DNA from: Acidimicrobiia bacterium
GTDB lineage: Bacteria > Actinomycetota > Acidimicrobiia > Spongiisociales > ZC4RG35
Assembly: GCA_965203555.1 (NCBI GenBank)
Contig: CBDBCY010000004.1
Coordinates: forward strand, 1,057,554-1,121,553
Reading direction: 5' to 3'
Length of the DNA stretch: 64,000 bases
Shown: positions 7,524 through 57,000 of the stretch, piece by piece
Layout: each line of letters begins with the position of its first letter
Numbering within the stretch: position 1 is the first letter of the stretch
The notes under the pieces: model-generated
What the model was told of the DNA's origin: nothing
Databases searched by the model: none
What the model saw: the letters and a program-made list of their open reading frames with translations, nothing else
Position numbers and translations under genes: made by a program

Positions 7524-7621
7524 GATTTCACCTGTTGGAATGAGAAGGCTGGGGCTGATGGGGTTAGGGAACCGAACGGCAAAGAACTCTGACGAAAAAC
7601 CTCACCGTTGCGTCCGGTAGA

Positions 7622-7638
7622 GTTTACGCATTGTAAAC
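7622..7638. promoter_or_regulatory. Palindrome GTTTACgcattGTAAAC in the divergent mtgC / DMGDH intergenic region (candidate operator)
   Basis: Perfect 6-bp inverted arms with a 5-nt spacer. Sits in the 180-bp divergent promoter region between 7523(-) and 7704(+). Confidence 0.3.
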
Positions 7639-7703
7639 GATCCGTGCAACCACACCGACCGCCACAAGAACAATAACCCGTCCTCAGCATAGGGAGTAAA
7701 GAT

Positions 7704-33253: not shown

Positions 33254-34092
33254 GCCGCCCGGTAGGGATCGAGATCTTCTACTGGCTGGACAGCTGGTAC
33301 GACGACCAGTCCTCGGTGTTCCACAAGGCCGCCGAGGCGGGCTACGACGGGGTGGAGATGTCGTTCGTGGCCGGGACCGACGTGGGCGTGCGACAAATCG
33401 CCACCACCGCATCGTCCCTGGGACTGGATGTCCTGTGCAGCACCGGCCTCACCCCGGCCATGGACGTCTCGAGCCCCGATTCCGATATTCGCGCGGCGGG
33501 GATCTACCACCTGAAATGGTGTATCGATCAAGCCGCCGCTCTGGGAAGCCCGATCCTGGGAGGCGTCACCTACGCACCGTGGATGGGGTTCCCGGAAGGC
33601 GACCTGAGCGGTCACCGGCAACGATCCGCCGAGTCGCTGCACACGGTGGCCGAGTACGCCGCCTCGGTGGGAGTCGACCTTTGCCTGGAGGTGCTCAACC
33701 GCTTCGAGAGCTACATGTTCAACACGGTGTCGGACTGCCTGTCATTCATCGACGTGGTGGGACATGACTCCGTCAAGGTGGAACTCGACACCTTCCACAT
33801 GAACATGGAGGAAGACGATCTGGCCGGCGCGGTCCGCCAGGCGGCGGGACGGATCGGCCATGTCCAGGTGGCGGCCAACAACCGCCGCGCTCCCCAGTAC
33901 GGCCACATCGACTGGGCGTCTTTCCGACGTGCCCTGGACGACGTCGGCTACGACGGCTGGGTGGTGTTCGAGACTTTCCCCAACTCCGCGGTCCAGACCG
34001 GCCGTGACACCTACGCCTGGCGGGATCTCTATGACGACCTGGACGGAGAGGCGTCCGGCGCCGCCGCCTTCATCCGAGAGCATCTGGCATGA
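33250..34092 (+). CDS. Sugar phosphate isomerase/epimerase (xylose-isomerase-like TIM barrel)
   Basis: …GYDGVEMSF…, …CLEVLNRFESYMFNTVSD…, …VQVAANNRRAPQYGHIDW… is the AP-endonuclease-2/XI TIM-barrel family. ATGA overlaps on both sides. Confidence 0.8.
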   Translation: MSRPVGIEIFYWLDSWYDDQSSVFHKAAEAGYDGVEMSFVAGTDVGVRQIATTASSLGLDVLCSTGLTPAMDVSSPDSDIRAAGIYHLKWCIDQAAALGSPILGGVTYAPWMGFPEGDLSGHRQRSAESLHTVAEYAASVGVDLCLEVLNRFESYMFNTVSDCLSFIDVVGHDSVKVELDTFHMNMEEDDLAGAVRQAAGRIGHVQVAANNRRAPQYGHIDWASFRRALDDVGYDGWVVFETFPNSAVQTGRDTYAWRDLYDDLDGEASGAAAFIREHLA

Positions 34093-35105
34093 GCGTCCGC
34101 ACTCGTCTCTTTCTCAATGACCCCGCCCATGCGGTGGCGGAGATGCTGGAGGGCTACGCGGCCGCTCATTCCGACATCATCAGGTTGTCCGACGGGATGG
34201 TGGTCCGCGCCACGCCCAAGCCGGATGGTCACGTCGGGGTGGTGATCGGCAACGGCTCCGGTCACGAACCGGCCATGATCGGCTGGGTCGGAGAAGGCCT
34301 GTTCGACGTCAACGTGCCGGGCCCGATCTTCTCCTCGCCCGGTCCGGGAGGCATCCTCGAAGGCATCAAAGCCGCCGACCGGGGCGGAGGGGTGCTGCTG
34401 CTGGTCTCCAGCCACGCAGGCGACATTATGAACGCCGAGTTGGCCATCGACGAGGCCGATGACGAGGGGATCGAAGACGTGGAGATGGTGATCCTCTACG
34501 ACGACATCGCCTCCGCGCCCCCCGGCCGGATCACCGAGCGCCGGGGCGGAGCGGGGCTGTTCTTCGTGTGGAAGATCGTGGGCGCCCTAGCCGAGAGCGG
34601 CGCGTCTCTGACCGATTGCGTGAGGATCGCCAAGAAGGCACGGGACCGCACCCGCACTCTCTCCGCGGCGATGGGGACCGTCGCACACCCGGTCAGCGGC
34701 CAACCGCTGGGAGATCCCGGGGACACCTCGGTGGCAGTCGGCCTAGGAGTGCACGGAGAGGCGGGAACCCGCCTGGGTGAAGATGTACAGGCCGACCGGA
34801 TCTCGGAGCTGATGATCCGCCGCCTCGTGGAGGATGCCGAACTCGAGGCCGGAGCGGAGGTGGCCCTTCTGCTCAACAACGGAGGCTCCCTGACCATCAT
34901 GGAACTCTCGGTCCTCTACCGGGGAGCCCGCGCCGAACTGGAACGGCGCGGCATCAAGGTGGCCCGGTCATGGATCGGTCCCTACGCCACCACCCTCGAC
35001 ATGGCGGGATTCGCCTTCGCCATCTGCCACCTGGACGAAGAGCTGACCGACCTCTACGACGCTCCCGCCCGAGGTGCCGGATTCGGAATGCCAGGACGCG
35101 GTTAA
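34089..35105 (+). CDS. dhaK: Dihydroxyacetone-kinase-family subunit DhaK (Dak1 domain)
   Basis: …GHVGVVIGNGSGHEPAMIGWVGEGLFDVNVPGPIFSSP… and …LLVSSHAGDIMNA… are Dak1 signatures. Confidence 0.85.
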   Translation: MSVRTRLFLNDPAHAVAEMLEGYAAAHSDIIRLSDGMVVRATPKPDGHVGVVIGNGSGHEPAMIGWVGEGLFDVNVPGPIFSSPGPGGILEGIKAADRGGGVLLLVSSHAGDIMNAELAIDEADDEGIEDVEMVILYDDIASAPPGRITERRGGAGLFFVWKIVGALAESGASLTDCVRIAKKARDRTRTLSAAMGTVAHPVSGQPLGDPGDTSVAVGLGVHGEAGTRLGEDVQADRISELMIRRLVEDAELEAGAEVALLLNNGGSLTIMELSVLYRGARAELERRGIKVARSWIGPYATTLDMAGFAFAICHLDEELTDLYDAPARGAGFGMPGRG

Positions 35106-35257
35106 CTGCGAGGAACTCACCGCTCTGGAGGTCCTCGCCCAGGCGGTCCACCGCGAGCATTGAGGGGTTTCTCGTCCGCCGGCCCAAACCTACGGGTTGA
35201 GCGCCTTGCGGCTTTCGACAGGTGAATCGGGGTACCTGTCGGCATGCTCCTTTGGGG

Positions 35258-35548
35258 TCAGGCCGGAATCGAGTTCCGCCAACGTTCTGACAGTCCCAGA
35301 TGGGCGGCCAAGCCGGCGAAGACGTCGGCTGTGTCCTGAAAGTAGTTGGAGTGGGTGACTTTGATAGCCTCTATCGAGTCAGCACCCAGCAGCACAACCT
35401 CCACTCGGGAGTTGCTCCGGTACTGCTCTTCCCGCTCACTGTATGCCTTAAGAGCCTGGGCGGTGTTGCGGAACTCTTCAAGGCTGACCAACGCCCTTGC
35501 GTCATGGTCAAACGTGAGCAGAAAGTCAATGGTCTTCCGCTTTGCCAC
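35258..35548 (-). CDS. Hypothetical protein in the low-GC islet (may be the remnant C-terminal part of the disrupted RelA/SpoT-domain gene)
   Basis: 96-aa ORF with lower GC and atypical codon usage. No family recognised. Confidence 0.25.
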   Translation of the reverse strand: MAKRKTIDFLLTFDHDARALVSLEEFRNTAQALKAYSEREEQYRSNSRVEVVLLGADSIEAIKVTHSNYFQDTADVFAGLAAHLGLSERWRNSIPA

Positions 35549-35719
35549 TTTCTTCCTTCCCTCGCATTATGAGTCCGAATGCTGCCATCATAGCCAACTG
35601 GGTGAGAATATCCATGAGGTCTTCTGTGTAAGGCTGGCCAGGCTCTCGCATCGACAAGAGCGTCGACAATCTTCTGAGCTGTGCGTGTACCTCGTCTGGG
35701 CCGTCGCCGTTCTTAAAGT

Positions 35720-36364
35720 CTACGCCGGTTTGCTGGTCACATCTTCCACCATTTTGGCCCAACTGTCTTGTTCTCGGGTGCGGAGCTGCACCTCGATTCG
35801 CCGGCCGTGGTACCTCGTATAGATGTGGATGGCCCGATAACCCGAGGTTTGAGGCGACACAATATAGTCCTTGATCTTGTCGGCCTGCTGGTTGCGCCTG
35901 AGGCTGTTCGCACAGAAGCGCTCCAAGACCCGTTGGACCTGTTCTTGGGTCTTGAGAACGGCCCGACAGCCTCCGATATCCTGCATGGTCGAGAGCTTCA
36001 TCTCCGGGAGTCGTCGGAGTTTGTCCTCAATGGTGGGCAGCCTCTTGAGTCGCCGCGAGATGTCAAGATCGAAGCCCTCGGTAGTCAGGCATGATCGCAA
36101 CCCCATGTACGCGGCGTGCAAAGGCTCAGCATGAGCAGACCGGTAGGCGTCCACAACTTCCCGAGCCTTGCGGACTTCCTCAGACGACGGCCCTTGCCCC
36201 AAGGTGATCTGTGCCCGGCGCAATGTCTCACCGGCGCGTGTTACGTTGCCCAACGATCCAAAGGGAGGGAGGTTTGTGTCGGCCATCTGATCGTGTCCCA
36301 AGCTAATCGCTTGTAGCGCCCTCCTGTCCGCTAGGCCGATCTCCCGTCTCCAAAGGAAGAGCAT
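35720..36364 (-). CDS. RelA/SpoT-domain (alarmone-synthetase / toxSAS-like nucleotidyltransferase) protein, apparently truncated or frameshifted at the C-terminus
   Basis: …DIGGCRAVLKTQEQVQRVLERF… and …DYIVSPQTSGYRAIHIYTRYHGRRIEVQLRTREQDSWA… are the RelA_SpoT synthetase-fold motifs. The ORF ends 14 aa after the QLRT motif. A plausible continuation (…YTEDLMDILTQLAMMAAF…) lies in another frame (35526..35762). GC is well below the flanks. Confidence 0.5.
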   Translation of the reverse strand: MLFLWRREIGLADRRALQAISLGHDQMADTNLPPFGSLGNVTRAGETLRRAQITLGQGPSSEEVRKAREVVDAYRSAHAEPLHAAYMGLRSCLTTEGFDLDISRRLKRLPTIEDKLRRLPEMKLSTMQDIGGCRAVLKTQEQVQRVLERFCANSLRRNQQADKIKDYIVSPQTSGYRAIHIYTRYHGRRIEVQLRTREQDSWAKMVEDVTSKPA

Positions 36365-36708
36365 AACGGACTACCGCATCCTAACCAGACAAGACTCCTC
36401 AGATGACCCGAGGATCGGGCGACGTGACTCCTGCTCCGCGATAGCATGAGAGGAAGAGACTTCGGTTTGGCAGACCAGCGAGTGGCCCGGGGTCCCGGAC
36501 TCGATCCCACCGACGAGCCATCGGACGCCGGAGAGGTTCCCTTGGTGGCTCGGCAGGGCGGACGCCCACCGCTCAAGAGCCAAGGAGGAGGAAGCCGTCG
36601 AACGCCCTCTTGGTCTTTCACTGGCGATTATCCGACAGTGAGCCGCCTCCATACCAAGGTCAGCTGAGAAGACCGACCAAACATCGCCCACTACCGTTAG
36701 TCGCTGTG

Positions 36709-37347
36709 ATGGAGCCACGACTGGCCGAACGACTGATCCTTGCCGCCGCCGGGCGGGTGAGCGACCACCAGGACGAACTGTCCCGCCTGGACGCGGTGGC
36801 CGGCGACGGCGACCACGGCGTGAACATGGCCACAGCCCTGACCGAGGCAACCAGACGAATCACAGAGTCGTCTGACACCACTCCCGGCGACATCTTCCGG
36901 ACCACCGGTCGCTCATTCCACGAAACCGTGGGCGGCGCCGCCGGAGCGCTGTTCGGAGCCTTCTTCGGCGCGGTCGGCGGCCAACTCAACCGATCGGCCG
37001 TCCCCGCTTCGGCAGCCGACCTGGTGGCCGGCATGGAGAAGGGACTGGCGCGGGTGATGCGGATCGGAAAAGTCAGCACCGGCGAAAAGACGATGGTCGA
37101 CGCCCTGGCGCCTGCAGTGGACGACGCTCGAAACACATCGGGACAGGGAGCCTCGCTGTCCGGGGTGCTGGTCGCGGCCGCCCGCGCCGCCCGGCGGGGT
37201 GCTCGGTCCACCGCCTCCATGGAACCCCGCGCCGGGAGGGCCCGCTACGCCCGGGAACGCAGCATTGGGACAGAGGACCCCGGCGCCTGTACCGTGGCTC
37301 TCATATTCGAAGCCTGGGCTGAGACCGCTACAGAGGAATCAACGTGA
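36709..37347 (+). CDS. dhaL: Dihydroxyacetone-kinase-family subunit DhaL (Dak2 domain)
   Basis: MEPRLAERLILAAAGRVSDHQDELSRLDAVAGDGDHGVNM… is the Dak2 ADP-binding helical domain. The track ORF starts 33 codons upstream at 36610. Confidence 0.8.
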   Translation: MEPRLAERLILAAAGRVSDHQDELSRLDAVAGDGDHGVNMATALTEATRRITESSDTTPGDIFRTTGRSFHETVGGAAGALFGAFFGAVGGQLNRSAVPASAADLVAGMEKGLARVMRIGKVSTGEKTMVDALAPAVDDARNTSGQGASLSGVLVAAARAARRGARSTASMEPRAGRARYARERSIGTEDPGACTVALIFEAWAETATEEST

Positions 37348-38786: not shown

Positions 38787-38896
38787 TCGGAGGCAGATTC
38801 CATCAACAGTGGCTGTTGAACACACTGCGCAGGCGGTGTCCAGGGTCGCTGAATACCCTCGGGCCAACTCTCCGGTACCCTCGATGACTGTTTTGG

Positions 38897-39331
38897 ATGG
38901 ATCGCCCCACATCATTACATCCGACCGATGTTTGTCACCCTATTACAATTCTGTGCATGGGTGAGCGCGAAGATGGCAACTTGAAGGTGCTCGGTCGTTG
39001 TGTTGACACCGGCGAGACACTGATTGAGGCCGACGATCTAGCTGACCTGCTGGCGTTGGCGCACAACCCCCCCGACCCCGATTCGGTGGGACGACCGCCC
39101 ACCATGAGAGAATCGGCCGATCTGGACGACGCCGCTGACAATCTCTTCCTGCACCTGACCGCCGAGGAACAGGCGCTCTACCTATCAGAGGTATCGGCGG
39201 AGGAGGCTGCCATGGACCTGGAGCGACTGACGCCTTCGCTCCGGGCGATTGTGTTCGACCTGCTTCCCCAGGTTCAGAGACAAGCCGTCGTGCGTAACTG
39301 GGATCGCCACGGTAAGGTCCTGTCCGCTTGA
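38897..39331 (+). CDS. Hypothetical protein in a degraded lower-GC region
   Basis: 144-aa ORF with no recognisable family. Weak support. Confidence 0.25.
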   Translation: MDRPTSLHPTDVCHPITILCMGEREDGNLKVLGRCVDTGETLIEADDLADLLALAHNPPDPDSVGRPPTMRESADLDDAADNLFLHLTAEEQALYLSEVSAEEAAMDLERLTPSLRAIVFDLLPQVQRQAVVRNWDRHGKVLSA

Positions 39332-39719
39332 GATTCGCCGGGTCGGCTTACGAACACGGCTACACGAAGGCGGATGTGACAATGGCTCTCAGGAAGAGGA
39401 TGGGAGATCGAATTGATTAACCGCGTGACGGCAGCCGCACCGTGGTGGCACCCGATCTGAGCGGCAATCCCATAGTTGTAATCGTGAACATACACGAAAA
39501 CATGGTGTACCACGTCTACCGCTACGAGAAATACGAAAAGGTGTTGTTCAGAGCGTTCAGGGACCGGTGAGATGTGAAGACGGCTTCAGTATGCCGATGC
39601 TGCTGAGACAACCGTCACCAAGGGGTTGTTGCCTCGTTCGACAGCCCAACCCTCCGACCACCGCCGACATCCGTCGGCGGAATTCTCGAGGTCAGGAAGT
39701 GACCAATCCGAGAGAATCC

Positions 39720-39940
39720 ATGGAAGCGCCAAACACACCAACCGGTACTGACCGGTCAGCCCGCCTCGCCACCGACACCGGACACTTCGCGGTCCTGGCC
39801 ATCGACCATGTGAGGTCCTTCGCCGCCACCGTACGACCCTACGACCCCGACTCGAAGAGCACCGAGGACATCTGGGCGGCCAAACGCCCCTTGGCGGAGA
39901 CCCTGTGCACTCACGCCTCAGCCAAGCTGGTGCACCGATA
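39720..39940 (+). pseudogene. Duplicated 5' fragment of the downstream aldolase gene (40279..)
   Basis: MEAPNTPTGTDRSARLATDTGHFAVLAIDHVRSFAATVRPYDPDSKSTEDIWAAKRPL… vs aldolase …RSARLDRVATATGHFAVLAIDHVASFAATVRPDDPGSMSTEDIWKTKLPL…, ~80% nt identity over ~200 bp, then diverges. Confidence 0.6.
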
Positions 39941-40278
39941 TCCTCCATCTCCAGTTCCGGGCATTTGGAATGACACACGTTATGGATCAGGAAACCGCCC
40001 GACCGGGCAGCTCTCAGATCAGTAGATTCTCACTGCTATTGTCCATTCCTGTCCCAGAGTTAGGGAGACACCCATATGGCCGCAGATAAGGATCAGGACC
40101 GAGAGGTAGTGCTCCGGGGCAAAAGCGAGAGCATGTCCGAACCAAAGCCTCTTCTCGACGATGCGTGGCCCCTCCACCGCACCGCGGTGTGGCCGGAGAG
40201 CCTGAGGCTCAGGCGTGAGGACCTCTATGAGGAATCGGGTGAGGACCTGATCCGACCCTGACCCATCCCCTACGCTCT

Positions 40279-41160
40279 GTGGAACCATCCACCTCACCGC
40301 TCCGATCGGCCCGCTTGGACAGGGTAGCCACCGCCACCGGACACTTCGCAGTCCTGGCGATCGATCATGTCGCTTCCTTCGCCGCCACCGTGCGACCCGA
40401 CGATCCCGGCTCGATGAGCACCGAGGACATCTGGAAGACCAAACTGCCGCTGATCGACGGGCTGGGTCCCCACGCCGGCGCGATGCTGATCGATCCGGGC
40501 TTTCTGCAAGGCTCCGGTTTCGAACGCTCCGAAGCCTTGTCCGAGACCGGCCTGATCCTGGGCATCGAGGACGGCGACTACGCGGACGTGCTCACCGCTC
40601 CTCGTTTCCTTCCCGGTTGGAGCGTGGAGAGAGCCGCTCTACTGGGGGTGGACGCGGTCAAGATCTCGATGTTCTTCGAACCCGGCGGCGACACCTCTGC
40701 GGCACAGGCCTTCGTCACCGAGGTGGTCGACCAGTGCCGACAGCAACACATGCCCCTCTTCGCCGAGCCCCTGGCCCTGTACGAGCACCCGCATGAAAGA
40801 AGAGATGCGGTCCTGGAAGGCGTAAGGCTCTTCGGACCCCTGGGCGCCGATGTCCTCAAGCTCCAGTTCCCCGAACCGGCCGAGAACACCTCCCCCGACT
40901 CCTGGGCCGAGGCCTGCCGTGAGATCGACCGGCTCAGCCCCGTCCCCTGGGCCATCCTCTCCGAGGGCGGCGACTACCACCTGTTCCGCCGTCAGCTCGC
41001 CATCGCCTGCCGAGCCGGCGCCTCCGGTTTCCTGGGCGGGCGTGCGGTCTGGCGGGAGGCAGCCACCGGCGAGGCCAGCCTGGACGGAGCAAAGGCCCGG
41101 ATCAGAGAGCTGAATTCAATCGCCGTGGCCGAGGGTGTAGATTGGAGAAGTCGAAAGTGA
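40279..41160 (+). CDS. Class I aldolase (LacD / tagatose-bisphosphate-aldolase-like DeoC-family)
   Basis: …HFAVLAIDHV… (LacD-like substrate loop), …GVDAVKISMFFEPGGD… (Schiff-base Lys region), and overall TIM-barrel aldolase layout. Confidence 0.7.
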   Translation: MEPSTSPLRSARLDRVATATGHFAVLAIDHVASFAATVRPDDPGSMSTEDIWKTKLPLIDGLGPHAGAMLIDPGFLQGSGFERSEALSETGLILGIEDGDYADVLTAPRFLPGWSVERAALLGVDAVKISMFFEPGGDTSAAQAFVTEVVDQCRQQHMPLFAEPLALYEHPHERRDAVLEGVRLFGPLGADVLKLQFPEPAENTSPDSWAEACREIDRLSPVPWAILSEGGDYHLFRRQLAIACRAGASGFLGGRAVWREAATGEASLDGAKARIRELNSIAVAEGVDWRSRK

Positions 41161-49704: not shown

Positions 49705-51918
49705 CTAAAAGGGATCCTCATAGTCGCTGTACCCACCCCGCATTTTCTCCCCTGCCGAATCCCTTCTTGCAAAGACACGACCTTCCCATTTTGCGCAAAT
49801 CTCCTCGAAGTTCGGTACCTTCTCCTCTTCGACCCAACTCTTGTACATCTGCGGATTGATGCTTTGCGGCACTGGATACGCTTCCCTAATGAGAGCTAAC
49901 GAAGGGATTTGTATACATTGCCCTAGCACCAAAGCGGTACGAGAGGGTAAGGTAGGAAGCTGATCAAGAAGTTCCGAATAGATGTTAGGAACTATCGCAC
50001 GAAAGTAGTGGAGATCTGCAGGGTTCTGCAATCGATGGACGATAAAACTATTGCATTGCGCCAGAACCGTGCGTGAGAGTTCGCTGGGTCGTTGAGAGGC
50101 TATTACCAATCCCAATCCACACTTTCTGCCCTCTCTGGCAATGCGTTCAAATATCTCCTTTGAAATAGAATCTTCCTCTGCTCGGCCAGTTTCCCGTATA
50201 TAATTGTGCGCTTCATCGAGGATCAGGACGACTGGATAATCTCCTCTCTCGACACCACTGATCGGATCAGAGAGTCGCTGCAGGAATTCGTGAATGAGCC
50301 GACCCAGAAGGGCTGTAACATTCTCAAGTGCTTCCGTAGCAAGAAGGCTCAAATCAACGATCACCACATTAGACCCGGATGATCCCTGCCGCTGCCGTTT
50401 GTAAAAGGGAAATACTTCCGGGGAAAGGGTGCAGGTGCCAATGCTGTGATCATTATCCCGAGAGCTAGCGCCGAGAATATCCCGCAAAAAGGTAGCCAAG
50501 GCATGCTCTACCTGTGGCCATTCGCTATCTGTCGGACCAAAGAGAAAGTCAAACCGGGAGTCTGCCAGGAGTCTATATATCCGCAATAGCATTGTAGAAC
50601 AATAGTCTCGGGTTCGAGGGGAATAGGCCTCGCTGCTAGCGAGAGCATCTTCGAGATACAGATCGCGAAAATCGCTCTTACTGAAGAATCTGGGGCTGTC
50701 CACAGAGGCGGCACCTCGGTGACCAGTCAACTGAGGAACACCCGCCAACTCCATAATCAAGGATTGAGCCACTTGGTTCACTTCTTGTCTAAGAGCCATA
50801 GTCAACGGATCGTAATCGCGGTCGCTCCTCCTTCTCACCTTCTTTCGTAGCTCGTGGAGTGTCTCCACTACCTCCTCTTGCAATATTGTTGGGTAGTGAC
50901 TAAGCAGTTCTCCAAGTGCACCGGCATTACCTGGGTCCTGTAGATAGGAAACAATCCCCTTGCACAATACGTCAATGGTGTTTCTTTCTTGCCATCGCCC
51001 CTCTCTTGCTGCAGTCATCATGCGTTGGCACTCTATCCGTAAGTCTTCTCTTAGTTTAACCCATGTTGGACTCTCTCCAGATTCCCGCGCGGCGGTGAGA
51101 GCTTCTAGCAACACTGGCTGCTGTACCCCCGGTGACGCTCGGAACAACCGTACAAAGTCGTCGGCGTTCATGAACCAGTATGGTATCGCCAGTTTGTCAG
51201 ATGCATCTGCGGCCGTGGGAATGTATAGAGTCTTATAGGACTCATGCACATCTGTCCAAGAGCCTTGTGGACTCCGTCGTTGGAAAGCGGAACGGTATTC
51301 GCCGTGTGTGTCAAAAATAATAAACCTGGTTTGCTTGACTGCGGGCGTATGCAGAATTGCTTGTATGATCGAAGAGATAGTACAGGACTTTCCGGAGCCG
51401 GTGCTACCGAGAACAGCGGCATGCATGCCAAAGAAGGCATCTACGTCAATGTTGATTGCGTATTCCGGGAAGACAGCGGAGCGACCAATGGACAAATGAG
51501 AATCGCCTCCCAAGGGAAAGCCTGGTTCAATGGCTCTTTGGAATATCGCATCAAGATCCTGCTGTGTTGGCATGAGAACAGGAGAATCCAGCACAGGATG
51601 GCTGCTAATGCCTTGCTGATAGATTCCTTCTTCAACAACGCCAGTCATTACTCCTCGTAGCATCTTCCTAGCGGACGGCAGGTGCACCGTATTGCCAGCA
51701 GCAGTAGCGCTTCCATCCTCCTTCACATAAAGGCGAGTAACAATAGCTACATTGCGATGTCCACCCACCGGAATGACGACATAGGAGTTTATATGCCCGG
51801 CATCCTTGGTCCCTTCAATCGTTGAACGAGTAAAACTCTTGAGATCGCTCTCTAGAGCTACCGTCACTTGTGCGGCATCTACGGCGACGACTCTACCGAT
51901 CCTGTAATCATCCATCAT
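49705..51918 (-). CDS. herA: HerA-like FtsK/HerA-superfamily ATPase of a Sir2-HerA defense pair
   Basis: Walker A GSTGSGKS, Walker B VVLILDEAHNY, …LVIASQRPSEL… (arginine-finger region). 737 aa, immediately downstream (14 bp) of the SIR2 gene on the same strand. Confidence 0.85.
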   Translation of the reverse strand: MMDDYRIGRVVAVDAAQVTVALESDLKSFTRSTIEGTKDAGHINSYVVIPVGGHRNVAIVTRLYVKEDGSATAAGNTVHLPSARKMLRGVMTGVVEEGIYQQGISSHPVLDSPVLMPTQQDLDAIFQRAIEPGFPLGGDSHLSIGRSAVFPEYAINIDVDAFFGMHAAVLGSTGSGKSCTISSIIQAILHTPAVKQTRFIIFDTHGEYRSAFQRRSPQGSWTDVHESYKTLYIPTAADASDKLAIPYWFMNADDFVRLFRASPGVQQPVLLEALTAARESGESPTWVKLREDLRIECQRMMTAAREGRWQERNTIDVLCKGIVSYLQDPGNAGALGELLSHYPTILQEEVVETLHELRKKVRRRSDRDYDPLTMALRQEVNQVAQSLIMELAGVPQLTGHRGAASVDSPRFFSKSDFRDLYLEDALASSEAYSPRTRDYCSTMLLRIYRLLADSRFDFLFGPTDSEWPQVEHALATFLRDILGASSRDNDHSIGTCTLSPEVFPFYKRQRQGSSGSNVVIVDLSLLATEALENVTALLGRLIHEFLQRLSDPISGVERGDYPVVLILDEAHNYIRETGRAEEDSISKEIFERIAREGRKCGLGLVIASQRPSELSRTVLAQCNSFIVHRLQNPADLHYFRAIVPNIYSELLDQLPTLPSRTALVLGQCIQIPSLALIREAYPVPQSINPQMYKSWVEEEKVPNFEEICAKWEGRVFARRDSAGEKMRGGYSDYEDPF

Positions 51919-51932
51919 GGAAGCTGGCGTTT

Positions 51933-53336
51933 CTACTGCTTGTCTCTGGATAGCGCCATTTTGTTGTAAGTCTGGACGACCTTCAGGGAAAGCTCTTCTT
52001 CCCGCAAATTGGGTAGCAGTGTGTCAACAAACGCATCAAAATGCCCCAGTGTCCCGCTCACAATCCATACTCGCTCATCCTTTAGCTCTTCCAGACTCGC
52101 CACAAATTCGCTCCGAGGATTAGGATCTACCACAACCAAGGTGAAGCTTGGGATTGCCAAAGCTTGACGTATTTGCGCGTTAACATGTTCGTCCCCAAAT
52201 CCGTAGCCTACAACCACCAGTGTTGATTGCGGTTGGGCAACAGCATTACCAAACCTCCGAAACATCTCCGAGTAGGGCAACCCCAAAGACTGGCCATACT
52301 TCAGCGGTGATGGGTAGATAAGCACGTCTTTATCCTCTGTTGATTCACCATATAGGGTCGCATAGAGTCCAAAAGGATTCAACCACGATGCCTCACAGCT
52401 GTGCCAATTAATGGACCCATGAAGCTTATACAGTTGTATTACCCTGTCATAGCGATGAACTCGCCCTTCAGTGGTCTGGGCGGGAAAGTAGAAGTCTATA
52501 TCATAGGACTCTGGCCTGAACACGCGGCGTAGTGTTCCGACAAAGCCATCCATCATAATCACTCCTTCAGCATCACCTGCTTGTTCAATGAGCGTATCAT
52601 AATTGAGTGTAAACAGATGAGTGCGACGCAGATTGAGGGGTCGGGTCAGAAGCTTCCTTAGTAGCAAACGATGAGTGCGGAGACTACCCTCTTTAGCAGG
52701 CACCGGTAAATCAAGCAAACGCGTTAGAGTATCCTCAATAGTCCTGATCAATGTTGCCAATACGCATTTGTTAATGTGGATGTATTCCTCATTGCACAAA
52801 ACTAGAGTGTCCGTTGATGTGAGCATACTAGCCGACCATGTGTGCAGTAGGCTCAAGAGGTGTTCTAAATTCAACGGGATGGGCTCAACCGAAGTATCCG
52901 AGGATGGACACTCCGTGCTCCGCTCTTCAAATGACAAGTCCTGTCCAGTAAGAATGGAAGCTACCTTATAGAAGAGGTCAAGCCAATCCGGCATGGAATC
53001 AGACGACCGCGGCATCCCTGCTCTTTGAATCAGATGCTTTTCCAATGGCCAAGGTATTGCAGCAAGCGATACACCACCGGCATCAATGGAAGCCCCTGCG
53101 CCCAATAGAAAGGACACATTTTCGGTCTTTAGGATCGTGCCAAATCGAACACGCATCCGCTTGAGAGTGTTCTCAAGAGCTGCTTGGGCCACCGTTGCTT
53201 GGGCTTCGTCCTCTGGATCTAAGGGGTTGAGGGCGTCCAGAGCCTGGCTTATGATGTCATCCTTGCCTAGCAGGATCCGGGAATCAGTGTAAGGAAGTGC
53301 TGACTTGTGGTTCATTGTTTCGCCGCGCGGAGTCAT
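51933..53336 (-). CDS. SIR2-family NADase-like protein of a Sir2-HerA defense pair
   Basis: FLLGAGASIDAGG (SIR2 GAGxS NAD-binding loop), LYKLHGSINW (catalytic His), VVGYGFGDEHVN (GYSFxD motif). An alternative start at 53315 (MNHKS) is possible. Confidence 0.85.
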   Translation of the reverse strand: MTPRGETMNHKSALPYTDSRILLGKDDIISQALDALNPLDPEDEAQATVAQAALENTLKRMRVRFGTILKTENVSFLLGAGASIDAGGVSLAAIPWPLEKHLIQRAGMPRSSDSMPDWLDLFYKVASILTGQDLSFEERSTECPSSDTSVEPIPLNLEHLLSLLHTWSASMLTSTDTLVLCNEEYIHINKCVLATLIRTIEDTLTRLLDLPVPAKEGSLRTHRLLLRKLLTRPLNLRRTHLFTLNYDTLIEQAGDAEGVIMMDGFVGTLRRVFRPESYDIDFYFPAQTTEGRVHRYDRVIQLYKLHGSINWHSCEASWLNPFGLYATLYGESTEDKDVLIYPSPLKYGQSLGLPYSEMFRRFGNAVAQPQSTLVVVGYGFGDEHVNAQIRQALAIPSFTLVVVDPNPRSEFVASLEELKDERVWIVSGTLGHFDAFVDTLLPNLREEELSLKVVQTYNKMALSRDKQ

Positions 53337-54014
53337 AGGATTTCGTTACGGAAGGATACCAATGGAGGTGATGAGGCAAGCGTATTTTGGGAATTTGGGA
53401 TGTAAGTGGGGAGTGCCACTGGACGGCGCGCAGGTAGAATCAACCGAATCGACGTCGCATGGCGGCGTGGTCACGGGTCTTTGATCTAATCGACACCCGA
53501 TGGTACGGATACCTGAGCGAAAGTGTCGTGGAGAGCTGGACCCACTCCCATCTCATCCCGCCAAGAGAGCGGCACTTGTGTGAGGTGCTCGCCAAGGGGA
53601 ACGCCAGGGTCACAGCGGAGGCTTAACCAGGTCGCGAATCCTTCCCGCACCGACTCAGCAGAACGGTGGCAACAGGGCAAACCCCACCCTCTCAGACCGA
53701 CCAAGTCAAGGTATCACCCTTGTCAACCTCCCCCCTGGCAACATCAGGTGGAAGGGGGAAGTGCACCCTTTGGTTGGTCACGCCGAGATGAACGACAACG
53801 TGGTTAAGGTCACAAACGCAGAGAAATCTGAACCACTCCGAGTGTCCGGAGGTGCAGCCCTTGGGAGGTGCAGCCCTTGGGAGATCCAGCTTAGGGAAAG
53901 ACAAGAAGAAACGTTAGCCGGAAGTCCGCTAGAGGGCTGTTCGGTTGATGTTCGTTGGTAAGCGCGAGCGTCGGTAGCAGTGGGCGGCGATTCATTGATC
54001 ACCGAGAAGGCGGG

Positions 54015-57000
54015 ATGTTGTCTGAAACCCTGCGTAAGTGGGTTGTCAGTCAGAATGCGAGTGCCTTGCCAGATCCAGCGGGGCCATGCTCAGTTTTCGC
54101 CGATACTTGGTGGAGAGCAGACATTAGGGTTCATCGAGTCTCCCGAGCCAGCCTATGGATGTCACACCCGGTAGGTAATCTGGCAGGGGAACGCATCAGA
54201 GGAGGACCATCCCAAGTGCAGTTGGAAGACCTAGCGCCCGGAACGGTGGTGGATGGATTGGTTGTGGGCGAGCGGGCTACCGTGGTGGCGGTCGATTGGC
54301 ATGGTGCGGGCACCGTCCAGGTGGTTTACCGAACGTTCCAAGGTGTCTCGGAGAGACTGCTCTCCCGGGCCGATGAGGCCCGTCTGTCGGTTGCCACCGA
54401 AGAGCGACCCTGGACGCTCGATGCGCCGGGGCACGCATTCAAGCTTGCCTCGGAGGCGCACCGCATCCAGCTGGCGCATCTGTTCGACCCCTACCTGGCT
54501 GTCCAGGGATCCAACATCGATCCTCTCCCGCACCAGATCGAGGCGGTATATCAGGAGATGCTTCCCCGTCAGCCGCTCCGGTTCCTTCTGGCTGATGATC
54601 CGGGAGCAGGCAAAACGATCATGTCGGGACTCCTGATCCGAGAATTGGATATACGAGGAGACGCCGACCAGGTGCTAATCGTGGCTCCGGGATCGTTGGT
54701 GGAACAGTGGCAGGAGGAACTTCATCAGAGATTCCACCTCTCTTTCGACATCTTCTCCCGTGACATGGTGGAGGCGGCTCGTACGGGCAATCCCTTCAAG
54801 GAACGCTCCCGCTTGATCGCTCGTCTAGATCAGTTGGCCAGAAACGAGGAACTGCAGGAACGGCTGAAGGCCTCAGAGTGGGACCTGGTGGTGGTCGATG
54901 AGGCTCACAAGATGTCTGCTCACCTCTATGGCCAAAAGCTGGAGAAGACCAAACGCTATCGGGTGGGAGAGATCCTCAGGGCCATTACTCGCCACTTTCT
55001 GCTGCTTACCGCCACCCCGCACAACGGTAAGGAAGAAGAATTTCACCTTTTCCTGGCCCTACTGGACCCCGACCGATTCGAGGGACGGTTAAAGGGAGAG
55101 GCCATTCCCGATTACTCCGATGCTATGCGCCGCTACGTAAAGGAGAAACTTCTCACCTTCGACGGTCGCCGCCTGTTCCCGGAGCGATTTGCTATCTCGG
55201 CCCAATACGAACTGTCGCTACCGGAGCAGGAGCTCTACGAGGCGGTCACGTCCTATGTGCGGATAGGCATGAACCGGGCCAAGCAGATGGAAGAGGGTGG
55301 TGATCGCCGGCGGGGATTGGCCGTGGGCTTTGCTTTGGCCGCTCTGCAAAGAAGATTGGCCTCATCCCCACAAGCCATCCATAGGTCTCTAGAGCGCCGA
55401 CGGGATCGCTTGAACAAGCGGCTCGATGAAATGAGAGACATCGCCGAGGGGAAAGCAGTTCCCAAAACCTCCACCAAGTCCGCAAAGCGAACGATCAACT
55501 TCGACGATTTCGACTTCGACGACTTCCGCGATGATGAGTTGGAGGAAATCGAAGACGCAGTCATCGACCAGGAAACCGCCGCCCGCACTATCCCAGAACT
55601 GGAAATAGAAATCTCCCAGCTCGCAGACCTAGAGAAAAAGGCTGCCCGATTGCGGGGTTTGAAGACCGACCGCAAATGGGAAGAGCTCCGGTCAATCCTC
55701 CACTCCGAAGAGATGACCTCTGCCAATGGTGTGGCTCGCAAGATCATCATCTTCACCGAACACCGGGACACGCTCGAGTACTTGGTGGCACGGATCGGAA
55801 CTCTGATAGGACGCTCCGAGGCGGTGGGATGGATACACGGTGGGATGAAGCGACACGACCGCCGCCGAGTCCAGCATGCCTTCGTCAACGATCCCAATCT
55901 GCGAGTGCTGGTGGCAACCGACGCTGCCGGAGAGGGAGTGAACCTACAACGAGCAAACCTGATGGTGAATTACGACCTCCCTTGGAATCCCAACCGTATC
56001 GAACAGCGTTTCGGTCGCATCCACCGGATCGGGCAGACGGAGGTTTGTTACCTGTGGAACCTGGTGGCACACGAAACGCGGGAAGGCGCGGTCTTCCATC
56101 GATTGTTCGAGAAGATCGAACAGCAACGGAAGGCGCTGGGCGGCCAGGTGTACGATGTGCTGGGTGACTCGATGATCGGGAAGTCCCTACGAGAGCTTCT
56201 GATCGAGGCGATCCGCTACGGGGACGATCCCAAAGTGAAAGCAAAGCGGGACGAAGTGATCGACGCCGATGTGGGCGAGCGCCTGCGGGACCTGGTGGAA
56301 CACCAGCAACTCGCTGAGGGGTGGATGGGGATAGACAAACTGTCCGACATTCGGGATGAGATGGAACGAGCCAGAGTCCGAAAGCTCCAGCCTGGATTCA
56401 TCCAAGCCTTCTTCATCGACGCCTTTCGCTTGCTACGTGGACGGATCCCCGAACGGGAGAAGAACCGATTCCAGATCACCCGCGTACCCCAGGGGCTCCG
56501 GGCCGACCCCTTGACCACCGTAGCCCGGGAATACGAGAGAGTCACCTTCGAACCCAGCCTGGAGACCGTGGAGGGAAAACCACCCGCTGAAGTCTTGAGC
56601 CCTGGACATCCACTCCTGGATGTGGTCATAGGGGCGATCAGAGCACAGTACGGTCGCTTTTTGCAGACCGGCACGGTGCTGGTTGATCCCGACGACTCGG
56701 GTACTACACCACGGGTCGTGGTGTATCTGGAACATCGGATCACCGATGGCAAACCCGAACGCAATGGTCGCCGTCCGGTGTCTCGACGATATCAGTACAT
56801 AGAGATACCGAAAGATGGGAAGCCCACCAGCGCCGGGCAGGCACCCTATCTGGACTACCGGCCTATCCGTGACGAAGAGCAGTCGATGATTAAGGCATTG
56901 GCTGAGGATGATTGGATCACGACCGCTCTGACGACCACCGCTCAGAGGTATGCCATAGAGCACCTGGCCCAAGTCCACTACCAGGAAGTTTCCCGCATCG

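What the first reader, a model, noticed from the sequence alone, without database searches (positions are those of the whole stretch)
35110..36700. Lower-GC islet with a RelA/SpoT-domain (toxSAS-like) gene inserted between dhaK and dhaL
dhaK (34089-35105) and dhaL (36709-37347) are normally adjacent and co-transcribed. Here they are separated by ~1.6 kb of lower-GC DNA. That DNA encodes, on the opposite strand, a protein with clear RelA_SpoT synthetase motifs (DIGGCRAVL…, DYIVSP…GYRAIHIY…IEVQLRT). The protein appears C-terminally truncated or frameshifted. There is also a 96-aa ORF of unknown function.

Small RelA/SpoT-domain proteins can be alarmone synthetases or tRNA-modifying toxins (toxSAS) with adjacent antitoxins. 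The insertion may inactivate or uncouple the Dha kinase.
Basis: partly seen in the sequence, partly recalled or inferred. Interest (0 to 1): 0.6.

Follow-up and report, generated by a model that had tools for sequence, protein, structure and literature searches.

The report
CapRel-type toxin–antitoxin pair between dhaK/dhaL
A two-gene toxin–antitoxin module of an already known type (a CapRel/PhRel-like enzyme expected to block tRNAs, plus its small inhibitor) sits between two normally adjacent sugar-kinase genes of a sponge-symbiont actinobacterium, with a one-base frameshift in the toxin gene; it is ordinary in kind and only mildly unusual in placement.

Summary
dhaK (34089-35105) and dhaL (36709-37347) are intact. 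They are separated by 1603 bp of lower-GC DNA (59% against 67-69%). In 55 of 63 related species the two genes are -4 to 83 bp apart.

The islet carries, on the minus strand, a two-gene operon:
- **Toxin:** a RelA/SpoT-type gene (35526-36286). Its closest solved relative is the tRNA pyrophosphokinase CapRelSJ46.
- **Antitoxin:** the 96-aa ORF (35258-35548). It is homologous to the ATphRel/ATcapRel antitoxins and to the C-terminal antitoxin domain of fused CapRel.

This is the unfused CapRel/PhRel architecture that the literature describes as typical of Actinobacteria.

The toxin gene lacks one base in a T-run (35729-35731). Adding it back gives a 253-aa protein identical to one on a metagenome contig. 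The frameshift is therefore very recent or an assembly error.

The same module occupies the same site in at least four other sponge-associated Acidimicrobiia sequences (L001, L011, L012, L072). The same gene pair occurs in unrelated contexts elsewhere. No integrase, terminal repeats or tRNA mark the borders.

Verdict: new member of a known kind, low to moderate interest. The side observation is that this operon's intergenic gaps hold varied defence or toxin-antitoxin genes across relatives.

The parts
34089..35105 (+). dhaK (Dak1 domain), intact. Its last ~300 bp (from about 34750) are ~100% identical to contig L001, while the rest is ~75-93% identical.
   Evidence: Pfam Dak1 E 1.7e-91 over 1-310 of 313. 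Identity profile against L001.
35106..35257 (.). Spacer between the convergent dhaK and antitoxin gene. It holds two hairpins (about 35108-35138 and 35216-35241) that could act as terminators; this is inference.
   Evidence: DNA fold (z -1.7, not significant overall). No Rfam match. No homology to L011 or L012.
35258..35548 (-). Antitoxin gene (96 aa, GTG start) of the ATcapRel/ATphRel (pseudo-zinc-finger) type. The invariant T-H-S-N-Y-F motif has its HSNY residues at 35342-35353.
   Evidence: PADLOC PDC-S33 positions 265-338, E 3.4e-11. hhalign against Phrann gp30: probability 94%, E 1.2e-7. hhalign against CapRelSJ46 residues 308-367: E 2.9e-4. Family alignment A2. The profile also hits the C-terminus of the fused RelA_SpoT protein P0282.
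35526..36286 (-). Toxin gene (toxSAS, CapRel/PhRel clade). The intact form is 253 aa. Here it is split by a 1-nt deletion: codons 1-186 plus two out-of-frame codons end at TAG 35720-35722, and the remaining 67 codons (35526-35728) lie in another frame. Key codons are R79 at 36050-36052, R108 at 35963-35965, G-loop Y150 at 35837-35839 and E165 at 35792-35794.
   Evidence: Pfam RelA_SpoT. P0001 and L001 carry the intact allele. The repaired window sequence equals P0001 at 253 of 253 residues. PDB and Foldseek top hits are 7ZTB and 9ERV. hhalign E 1.2e-24. Invariant residues.
35729..35731 (.). Frameshift site: a run of three T on the plus strand (AAA on the coding strand) where the intact allele has four.
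   Evidence: Pairwise alignment with L001.
36287..36667 (.). Region upstream of the toxin gene and divergent from dhaL. It presumably holds the module's promoter. Positions 36287-36442 are shared with L001, and 36443-36667 have no detected homolog.
   Evidence: The consensus scan found no promoter here. No significant structure.
36668..36708 (+). Conserved dhaL leader, with CCACTACCGTTAGTCGCTGTG at 36688-36708. It is shared by relatives whose dhaK-dhaL gap is enlarged, whatever the cargo.
   Evidence: blastn, alignment of dhaL upstream regions, and pattern searches that found a single copy per locus.
36709..37347 (+). dhaL (Dak2 domain), intact. It overlaps the next operon gene (480-aa sugar isomerase-like protein) by 4 nt.
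   Evidence: Pfam Dak2 E 9e-44 over 2-174 of 174. ORF list.

Best explanation
The islet is a bicistronic (unfused) toxSAS toxin-antitoxin module of the CapRel/PhRel clade.

**Components (shown).** The upstream gene encodes a 253-aa RelA/SpoT-fold pyrophosphokinase. The overlapping downstream gene encodes a 96-aa pseudo-zinc-finger antitoxin.

**Mechanism (inferred from characterised relatives).** The toxin transfers pyrophosphate from ATP to the 3' CCA end of tRNAs. This stops aminoacylation and translation. The antitoxin binds the toxin and pushes its H-S-N-Y motif between the two adenine-coordinating arginines (R79 and R108). That motif is the counterpart of the YXXY neutralisation motif, and its insertion closes the ATP donor site. 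The likely role is abortive-infection phage defence or plain addiction. What triggers the toxin is unknown.

**Origin (shown and inferred).** It is shown that the module lies in the dhaK-dhaL intergenic space of a subset of sponge-associated Acidimicrobiia. It is inferred that it spread there by recombination through the flanking operon genes, because it carries no mobility genes.

**State in this genome.** A 1-nt deletion truncates the toxin after its catalytic core. The deletion removes 67 conserved C-terminal residues, while the antitoxin gene stays intact. The toxin is therefore probably newly inactivated here (about 60% likely). Otherwise the base is an assembly error and the module is intact.
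For: **Toxin identity**
- Pfam RelA_SpoT, E 6.9e-16.
- PADLOC PDC-S33, E about 1e-55. CapRelSJ46 itself matches that model at E 7e-87.
- The best PDB sequence hit is 7ZTB/9ERV at E 1.3e-14, ahead of RelQ at 3e-8.
- The AF2 model has pLDDT 89. Its top Foldseek hits are 7ZTB/9ERV at E 2e-12 to 8e-12, TM 0.62-0.65.
- hhalign gives 99.6% probability and E 1.2e-24 against CapRelSJ46. Against Phrann gp29 it gives 98.9% and E 1e-17.
- R79, R108, G149-Y150 and E165/Q167/R169 are invariant in 47 homologs.

**Antitoxin identity**
- It matches the C-terminal third of PDC-S33 at E 3.4e-11.
- Against the validated antitoxin Phrann gp30, hhalign gives 94% probability and E 1.2e-7, with a shared THS[NR]YF motif.
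- It aligns to CapRelSJ46 residues 308-367, which include AYPNYF.
- The predicted topology is beta-beta-alpha-beta plus a C-terminal helix, as described for the pseudo-ZFD (PMC9712102).
- A profile search finds 955 relatives. Nearly all of the 150 best that are listed are 53-133 aa. One is a fused RelA_SpoT protein matched at its C-terminus, E 1.8e-14.

**Operon structure**
- A partner ORF of about 90-101 aa lies immediately downstream of the toxin in 8 of 8 genomic contexts examined.
- The gene order is the same as in Phrann gp29-gp30.

**Literature**
- Unfused CapRel is the form found in Actinobacteria (PMC9712102).
- PhRel and CapRel share a homologous antitoxin (PMC7229694).
- Both inhibit translation specifically (bioRxiv 10.1101/2021.04.30.441581).
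- The YXXY motif blocks the ATP site (PMC11782079).

**Frameshift:**

**C-terminal residues lost by the truncation are conserved.** G188, K192, G196 and L204 are invariant.
Against: **No experiment.** Toxicity, neutralisation and the substrate are all inferred.

**The structural evidence for the antitoxin is weak.**
- The model has pLDDT 63.
- Foldseek against the PDB found nothing significant.
- hhalign against CapRelSJ46 gives only 40% probability.
- The first Tyr of YXXY is His in this family.

**Substrate.** Kurata et al. state that no sequence signature separates tRNA-targeting from nucleotide-targeting toxSAS, so the substrate rests on clade membership alone.

**Subfamily.** CapRel could not be told apart from PhRel without the reference RSH phylogeny.

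**No phage link.** IMG/VR holds only relatives of 39% identity or less.

**The frameshift may be an artefact.** All 9 nucleotide differences from L001 inside the toxin gene are synonymous, including 5 downstream of the frameshift. This fits an assembly error as well as a very recent mutation.
Confidence: 0.85

Rival explanations
1. The module is fully intact in the organism. The missing base in the T-run at 35729-35731 is a sequencing or assembly error, so the genome carries a working toxin-antitoxin pair.
For: - Adding one base gives a protein identical to P0001 at 253 of 253 residues.
- All 9 nucleotide differences from L001 in the gene are synonymous, including 5 downstream of the shift. 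No relaxation of constraint is visible.
- The indel lies in a homopolymer.
Against: - A run of 3 against 4 bases is short for a homopolymer error.
- L012, a chromosome-level assembly, has an independent 1-nt deletion at nt 235 of its copy.
- At least a dozen family members on contigs longer than 20 kb are fragments. Antitoxin homologs are almost all full length. This is the usual pattern of toxin decay.
- No independent contig with either allele could be found.
Confidence: 0.4
2. The enzyme is a (pp)pApp- or (p)ppGpp-producing toxic alarmone synthetase (FaRel/Tas1-like), not a tRNA pyrophosphokinase. It would act by depleting ATP or by alarmone toxicity.
For: - The RelA_SpoT fold and catalytic residues are common to both chemistries.
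- The literature states that no sequence signature separates the two (bioRxiv 10.1101/2021.04.30.441581).
Against: - The nearest relatives, CapRelSJ46 and PhRel, are translation inhibitors.
- The antitoxin is of the pZFD/YXXY type that blocks the ATP donor site. PMC11782079 links that type to tRNA-targeting toxSAS. The (pp)pApp producers are instead neutralised by Tis1-like domains or SAH hydrolases.
- No SAH gene is adjacent.
Confidence: 0.07
3. The gene is a housekeeping small alarmone synthetase (RelQ/RelP-like) that makes (p)ppGpp for stress signalling, and the 96-aa ORF is unrelated.
For: There are weak matches to the NCBIfam spoT_relA and YjbM models and to RelQ structures.
Against: - The NCBIfam YjbM score is 35 bits against a cut-off of 320.
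- CapRel hits are stronger than RelQ hits in every comparison.
- The 96-aa partner is conserved and translationally linked in 8 of 8 contexts, and it is homologous to validated antitoxins.
- The gene is patchily distributed and often broken.
Confidence: 0.03
4. The arrangement dhaK-[module]-dhaL is ancestral for the operon and was lost elsewhere, so it is not an insertion.
For: - The module sits at the same site in WIN, L001, L011, L012 and L072, with divergence of 73-82% aa. That is comparable to, or greater than, the divergence of the flanking genes.
- The carriers are not monophyletic in a 3-protein NJ tree. A single old gain followed by several losses within this clade is therefore possible.
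Against: - 55 of 63 loci, including all distant Acidimicrobiia and Chloroflexota outgroups, have dhaK and dhaL abutting.
- The islet has lower GC and GC3.
- The same gene pair occurs in unrelated contexts next to integrases or an IS630 transposase.

The arrangement is therefore derived for the operon. Only the number of gains within the close clade is open.
Confidence: 0.03

Closest known systems
Unfused CapRel:ATcapRel of Mycobacterium sp. AB308 (Jimmy et al. 2020, PMC7229694)
   Same: It is a two-gene operon in an actinobacterium. A toxSAS toxin is followed by a small antitoxin of the family shared by CapRel and PhRel, and the toxin inhibits translation. Zhang et al. 2022 (PMC9712102) state that the unfused form is the one found in Actinobacteria.
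   Different: The host is a sponge-symbiont Acidimicrobiia, the module sits inside a catabolic operon, and the toxin is frameshifted in this genome.
PhRel:ATphRel (gp29:gp30) of mycobacteriophage Phrann
   Same: Same gene order, toxin then antitoxin. hhalign gives E 1e-17 for the toxin. For the antitoxin it gives 94% probability and E 1.2e-7, with a shared THS[NR]YF motif.
   Different: Phrann's pair is prophage-borne and acts in superinfection exclusion. Here there is no phage context. The toxin is somewhat closer to CapRelSJ46 (E 1.2e-24). gp30 is shorter, at 71 aa.
CapRelSJ46 (PDB 7ZTB, 9ERV), a fused toxin-antitoxin and phage capsid sensor
   Same: It is the best solved relative by sequence and fold. 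It belongs to the same PADLOC family, PDC-S33. R79, R116 and Y155 correspond to R79, R108 and Y150 here. Its C-terminal pseudo-ZFD aligns with the 96-aa protein, including the YXXY position.
   Different: It is a single polypeptide, whereas this family is split into two ORFs in all 8 contexts seen. The motif is HSNY, not YPNY. Capsid sensing has been shown only for the fused proteins.
FaRel2:ATfaRel2 (Coprobacillus sp. D7)
   Same: It is a bipartite tRNA-targeting toxSAS whose antitoxin pZFD blocks the ATP donor site through a YXXY 3-10 helix (PMC11782079). It is the only bipartite complex with a solved structure, so it is the best mechanistic model for neutralisation in trans.
   Different: It belongs to a different toxSAS clade, and its antitoxin is a circularly permuted distant homolog. 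No direct comparison was run here.
Housekeeping small alarmone synthetases RelQ/RelP (YjbM/YwaC)
   Same: They share the RelA_SpoT catalytic fold.
   Different: They have no antitoxin partner and form tetramers that make (p)ppGpp. The match falls far below the NCBIfam cut-off (35 against 320 bits).

Membership tests
toxSAS, CapRel/PhRel clade | RelA/SpoT (toxSYNTH) fold with the G-loop Tyr, two adenine-coordinating Arg residues and the catalytic ExQxRT strand | tested here: met
   Pfam E 6.9e-16. AF2 model pLDDT 89. R79, R108, Y150, E165, Q167 and R169 are invariant in alignment A1. They align to CapRelSJ46 R79, R116 and Y155.
toxSAS, CapRel/PhRel clade | Closer to CapRel/PhRel than to housekeeping SAS or long RSH enzymes | tested here: met
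   PDB phmmer: 7ZTB at 1.3e-14 against RelQ at 3e-8. Foldseek: 7ZTB/9ERV at 2e-12 to 8e-12 against RelQ at 5e-9. PADLOC PDC-S33 at 1e-55.
toxSAS, CapRel/PhRel clade | An adjacent cognate antitoxin of the ATcapRel/ATphRel (pZFD) family. Per Jimmy et al. 2020 this family is shared only by these two subfamilies. | tested here: met
   hhalign against Phrann gp30: 94% probability, E 1.2e-7. PDC-S33 C-terminal match, E 3.4e-11. Fused homolog P0282. The partner lies downstream in 8 of 8 contexts.
toxSAS, CapRel/PhRel clade | YXXY neutralisation motif in the antitoxin | tested here: inconclusive
   The aligned position reads H66-S-N-Y69. T65, H66, N68 and F70 are invariant, and Y69 is conserved in at least 90% of sequences. 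The validated antitoxin gp30 also has H-S-R-Y, while CapRelSJ46 has Y-P-N-Y. The literal YXXY is not met, but the ATphRel form of the motif is.
toxSAS, CapRel/PhRel clade | Assignment to CapRel or to PhRel in the reference RSH phylogeny | not tested
   No reference tree or subfamily HMMs were available. The only proxies are the hhalign E-values: 1.2e-24 against CapRelSJ46 and 1e-17 against PhRel.
toxSAS, CapRel/PhRel clade | The toxin is growth-inhibitory and is neutralised by its partner, and it pyrophosphorylates the tRNA 3' CCA end | not testable with these tools
   This needs expression and biochemical assays.
Fused CapRel (PADLOC PDC-S33, single-gene system) | Toxin and antitoxin domains in one polypeptide | tested here: not met
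   There are two ORFs, with a 23-nt overlap here and in L001 and spacing of -1 to +15 nt elsewhere. The toxin matches profile positions 9-219 and the 96-aa ORF matches 265-338.
Housekeeping SAS (RelQ/YjbM) | Score above the NCBIfam equivalog cut-off | tested here: not met
   NF053588 scores 35.4 bits against a cut-off of 320.
Dihydroxyacetone kinase DhaK/DhaL pair | Full-length Dak1 and Dak2 domains in an operon | tested here: met
   Pfam matches cover 1-310 of 313 and 2-174 of 174. The order xylose-isomerase-like TIM, dhaK, dhaL, isomerase is conserved in 60 or more loci.
Transposon, integrative element or integron cassette | Terminal inverted or direct repeats, an attC-like structure, an integrase or transposase, or a tRNA target | tested here: not met
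   No convincing repeats. No tRNA genes. No tandem repeats. No significant folding of the border regions. No mobility gene lies in the 1603 bp. The conserved 21-mer upstream of dhaL occurs once per locus.

The most novel reading that the evidence does not exclude
The conserved sugar-catabolic operon of sponge-associated Spongiisociaceae-like Acidimicrobiia acts as a multi-slot cargo site. The operon order is xylose-isomerase-like TIM, dhaK, dhaL, isomerase, DeoC.

Different toxin-antitoxin and defence genes occupy its intergenic gaps in different species:
- the CapRel-type pair;
- VapBC;
- a TIR protein;
- a GmrSD/Schlafen protein;
- DUF2335 and DUF3224 proteins.

On this reading the cargo is exchanged between species by recombination anchored in the operon's own genes, without dedicated mobility genes. 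Such exchange would leave partial copies of the neighbouring core gene. Two such copies were seen: the truncated dhaK next to the module in L001, and the DeoC 5' fragment at window 39720-39932.
Probability: 0.35. Interest if true: 0.5.

Novelty: new member of a known kind. Interest (0 to 1): 0.3.

Why it matters
- **Host range.** It extends the unfused CapRel/PhRel toxin-antitoxin family to uncultured sponge-symbiont Acidimicrobiia. It also supplies a family of about 600 toxin homologs and about 950 antitoxin relatives whose neutralisation motif is HSNY, not YXXY.
- **A natural comparison.** The window holds an almost identical pair of intact and frameshifted alleles. This could be used to ask whether the C-terminal 'anchor' helices are needed for toxicity or for neutralisation in a two-protein system.
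- **Genome dynamics.** It shows a small defence or addiction module lodged inside a working catabolic operon and apparently moving with pieces of that operon.
- **Limits.** None of this changes current understanding of toxSAS systems. For annotation, the practical point is that the gene should not be called a GTP pyrophosphokinase, and that the 96-aa ORF has an assignable function.

Tried and rejected
- **Mobile-element signatures at the islet borders.** I looked for direct and inverted repeats, tRNA genes, tandem repeats, Rfam families and attC-like single-strand structure. Nothing was found.
- **A remnant of dhaK or dhaL in the unexplained 36300-36720 stretch.** I tried blastn with word size 7 and tblastn. 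Neither gave a significant match.
- **The conserved 21-mer upstream of dhaL as a repeated att-like site.** It occurs once per locus, so I rejected this idea.
- **An independent copy of the frameshift allele.**
  - An exact look-up of the window's DhaK found nothing on record.
  - A pattern scan of JGI metagenomes gave 0 hits.
  - A protein-guided scan found only relatives of 64-73% identity.
- **A phage origin.** IMG/VR holds only relatives of 31-39% identity. The phage GenBank set holds only Phrann, SJ46 and similar phages, at about 28-31% identity.
- **Programmed frameshifting.** I rejected this because all homologs read in a single frame, and the broken copies are broken at different positions.
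- **Literature.** Searches for PDC-S33 and for the host family returned nothing useful.
Full report
**Observation**

- dhaK (34089-35105) is a full-length Dak1 protein, and dhaL (36709-37347) is a full-length Dak2 protein.
- They are separated by 1603 bp with GC 0.591, against 0.670 and 0.690 for the two genes.
- GC3 of the islet genes is 0.60-0.71, against 0.77-0.90 for the neighbouring operon genes.
- On the minus strand lie a 214-aa ORF (35720-36364) with a Pfam RelA_SpoT match at E 6.9e-16, and a 96-aa ORF (35258-35548).

I fetched the dhaK locus from 68 species-representative genomes. The closest are sponge-associated Acidimicrobiia (Candidatus Spongiisocius and Spongiisociaceae), at up to 90% DhaK identity. 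Both genes lie on one strand in 63 of these loci. In 55 of them the dhaK-to-dhaL gap is -4 to 83 bp, with a median of 8. The wide spacing is therefore derived.

**The toxin gene and its frameshift**

The RelA_SpoT reading frame stops at TAG 35720-35722 but continues in another frame down to 35526. Most are 245-256 aa. The best, P0001, is 99% identical to that hand-repaired query.

P0001 lies on contig L001, where it is followed by a 96-aa ORF and then dhaK, as in the window. Aligning the two DNAs places the defect exactly. The window has TTT at 35729-35731 where L001 has TTTT. Adding one base gives a 253-aa protein identical to P0001 at every residue. All nine nucleotide differences within the gene are synonymous, including five downstream of the shift.

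The true start is the ATG at 36286 (MADTNL...), as in the homologs, and not the upstream ATG at 36364. As the sequence stands, the product would be 188 aa. It would keep every beta strand and the helix after the catalytic strand. It would lose two long C-terminal helices (model residues 198-213 and 222-250) that contain invariant residues G188, K192, G196 and L204.

**What the toxin is**
- The best solved relative by sequence is CapRelSJ46 (7ZTB, 9ERV) at E 1.3e-14, ahead of RelQ at 3e-8.
- The AlphaFold model (pLDDT 89) has CapRelSJ46 as its top three Foldseek hits, at E 2e-12 to 8e-12 and TM 0.62-0.65.
- Profile comparison gives 99.6% probability and E 1.2e-24 against CapRelSJ46. Against PhRel (gp29) of mycobacteriophage Phrann it gives 98.9% and E 1e-17.
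- PADLOC assigns the protein to PDC-S33 at about 1e-55. I fetched CapRelSJ46 from phage SJ46, and it matches that model end to end at E 7e-87.
- The residues Zhang et al. (PMC9712102) identify as functional are R79 and R116, which coordinate adenine, and G-loop Y155. They correspond to R79, R108 and Y150 here. These, together with E165, Q167 and R169, are invariant in 47 homologs.
- The NCBIfam RelQ model scores 35 bits against a cut-off of 320, so this is not a housekeeping synthetase.

**What the 96-aa ORF is**

It has no Pfam or PDB sequence match. Several lines nevertheless tie it to the toxSAS antitoxins.
- It matches positions 265-338 of the 349-position PDC-S33 profile at E 3.4e-11, which is the C-terminal antitoxin region of fused CapRel.
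- It has about 127 close homologs, all stand-alone proteins of roughly 58-153 aa (most 86-119), with a strongly conserved core VEVVLLGADSIDAIKVTHSNYF.
- The family profile aligns to the validated antitoxin Phrann gp30 (ATphRel) at 94% probability and E 1.2e-7. The two share the motif THS[NR]YF.
- It aligns to CapRelSJ46 residues 308-367, which include AYPNYF, the YXXY neutralisation motif.
- An exhaustive profile search of 1.84 billion representatives found 955 relatives. Nearly all of the 150 best that are listed are 53-133 aa. One is a 331-aa protein with an N-terminal RelA_SpoT domain, matched at residues 242-307 at E 1.8e-14. This is a natural fusion.

**Operon structure**

The antitoxin's GTG start lies 23 nt before the toxin's stop in the intact allele. 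A partner ORF of about 90-101 aa lies directly downstream of the toxin in all eight contexts examined. These are L001, L002, L072, L073/L074, L099, L100 and L101, plus the window itself. The order, toxin then antitoxin, is the same as in Phrann gp29-gp30.

**How it most likely works**

The steps below are inferred from characterised relatives.
- CapRel and PhRel form one clade, share a homologous antitoxin, and inhibit translation specifically (PMC7229694; bioRxiv 10.1101/2021.04.30.441581).
- CapRelSJ46 pyrophosphorylates tRNA. It is held inactive by its pseudo-ZFD, whose YXXY motif inserts between the two arginines of the ATP site (PMC9712102).
- The same mechanism has been demonstrated structurally for the two-protein FaRel2:ATfaRel2 complex (PMC11782079).
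- By homology, the 253-aa protein should be a tRNA 3'-CCA pyrophosphokinase. The 96-aa protein should neutralise it in trans by placing H66 and Y69 at R79 and R108.
- Zhang et al. note that the fused architecture predominates 'except in Actinobacteria', so the split form in an Acidimicrobiia is what one would expect.
- The trigger and the biological role (phage defence or addiction) cannot be read from the sequence.

**State in this genome**

Two readings remain open: the toxin was inactivated very recently, or the missing base is an assembly error.

For a real mutation:
- L012 has an independent 1-nt deletion at nt 235 of its copy, with an intact antitoxin gene.
- At least a dozen family members on contigs longer than 20 kb are N- or C-terminal fragments, some with frameshift tails.
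- Antitoxin homologs are almost all full length.

For an error:
- The site is a homopolymer.
- There is no sign of relaxed constraint downstream of the shift.

I put about 60% on a real mutation. No independent copy of either allele could be found.

**History of the insertion**

The same module lies between dhaK and dhaL in L001, L011, L012 and L072. It is 73-82% identical at the protein level in the last three. It is absent from equally close relatives (L006-L009, L013, L015). The carriers are not monophyletic in a neighbour-joining tree of three flanking proteins. Only the coding part (35258-36307) is alignable between carriers.

L001 is a mosaic.
- Its xylose-isomerase-like gene and the 5' two-thirds of its dhaK are 93-98% identical to L004, a species that lacks the module.
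- From about 34750 to 36442 it is 98.5-100% identical to the window.
- Beyond 36442 it carries a 5'-truncated third dhaK allele.

This is either inter-species recombination that carried the module along with a patch of dhaK, or a chimeric metagenome contig.

No repeats, tRNA genes, integrase or structured ends mark the islet. Elsewhere the same gene pair sits next to tyrosine recombinases (L073/L074), next to an IS630 transposase (L002), beside a HipA module (L101), or between unrelated core genes (L100).

**Effect on the Dha kinase**

Both kinase genes are intact here and in the other carriers. The module converges on dhaK and diverges from dhaL. Hairpins follow both converging stop codons. 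A conserved leader (36668-36708) precedes dhaL in most relatives whose gap is enlarged, whatever the gap contains. It is plausible that dhaL is transcribed separately from dhaK, but this is untested. Inactivation of the kinase is not supported.

**Wider pattern (noticed in passing)**

Other relatives carry different cargo in the same operon.
- **dhaK-dhaL gap:** a DUF3224 gene (L005, L011), and an IS1595 fragment with unknown ORFs (L014).
- **dhaL-isomerase gap:**
  - a TIR protein (L072);
  - VapBC (L008);
  - a GmrSD_N plus Schlafen/AlbA_2 protein (L027-L030), interrupted by an IS in L028;
  - a DUF2335 protein (L004, L006; split across ORFs in L015).
- **Isomerase-DeoC gap in the window:** this gap is 1.5 kb, against 6-70 bp in most relatives. 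It holds an unknown 144-aa ORF and a diverged copy of the DeoC 5' end.

This suggests, but does not prove, that the operon's gaps are recurrent cargo sites served by flank-anchored recombination.

**Verdict**

This is a new member of a known kind: an unfused CapRel/PhRel-type toxSAS toxin-antitoxin module. Interest is low to moderate.

Noticed in passing
window 38787-40278: A third enlarged gap in the same operon. The isomerase-to-DeoC distance is about 1.5 kb here, against 6-70 bp in most relatives. It holds an unknown 144-aa ORF (38897-39331) and a diverged duplicate of the DeoC 5' end (about 39720-39932). The duplicate is 62% identical at the protein level to the first 71 residues of the resident DeoC (40279-41160).
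   Followed up: partly
window 49705-53336: A SIR2 (51933-53336, minus strand) plus HerA (49705-51918, minus strand) anti-phage pair lies in a low-GC island (GC about 0.50, GC3 about 0.5). PADLOC gives HerA E 2e-141 and SIR2 E 2e-79.
   Followed up: partly
window 53955-57269: A 1104-aa SNF2/DEAD helicase matches PADLOC HmaA over its full length (1327 bits), next to the SIR2-HerA pair. Other Hma components were not looked for.
   Followed up: no
L072 3744-4118; L008 7141-7853; L027-L030 (e.g. L029 7714-10002); L006 7939-8496: The dhaL-to-isomerase gap of relatives holds different defence or toxin-antitoxin cargo:
- a TIR_2/ThsB-like protein (PDC-S66) in L072;
- a VapB-VapC (RHH plus PIN) pair in L008;
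- a 763-aa GmrSD_N plus Schlafen/AlbA_2 protein in L027-L030, interrupted by an IS5-family transposase in L028;
- a DUF2335 membrane protein in L004 and L006 (split across ORFs in L015).

   Followed up: partly
L005 2180-2632; L011 8186-8635; L014 7015-8810: Other cargo occupies the dhaK-dhaL gap. L005 has a 150-aa DUF3224 gene in the operon orientation. L011 has the same gene alongside the CapRel-type pair. L014 has about 1.8 kb with an IS1595 zinc-ribbon fragment and ORFs with no family match.
   Followed up: partly
L001 1-330 (junction at window 36442): Contig L001 is a mosaic: an L004-like left flank, a window-like dhaK 3' end plus module, then a sharp junction to a 5'-truncated dhaK copy that starts at about codon 152. 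That copy is a third allele, 92% identical to L004, 89% to the window and 85% to L001's own dhaK. It is either a real recombinant or a chimeric assembly.
   Followed up: partly
L012 about 7330-8090 (nt 235 of the toxin gene): There is an independent 1-nt deletion in the toxin gene of another chromosome-level assembly (OZ219757.1), within the codons for the RRLKRL motif, with an intact antitoxin gene. Many other family members on long contigs are toxin fragments.
   Followed up: yes
window 36688-36708; L004 7491-7509; L012 8184-8202; L014 8792-8810; L072 4781-4799: A conserved 19-21-nt leader (CCACTACCGTTRGYCGCTGTG) abuts the dhaL start in most relatives with an enlarged dhaK-dhaL gap, whatever the gap contains. 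It is absent from loci where the genes abut. Its function is unknown.
   Followed up: partly
L010 4031-4640 and L016 7015-7521: The ~500-600-bp dhaK-dhaL gaps of these two genomes appear to share a homologous stretch with no convincing ORF. The evidence is that similar spurious translations appear in both. It could be a non-coding element or a decayed gene.
   Followed up: no
L033 8209-9132: The dhaL-isomerase gap of L033 is a high-GC (0.70) run of near-identical repeats of roughly 90 codons, visible in the ORF translation. It was not analysed further.
   Followed up: no
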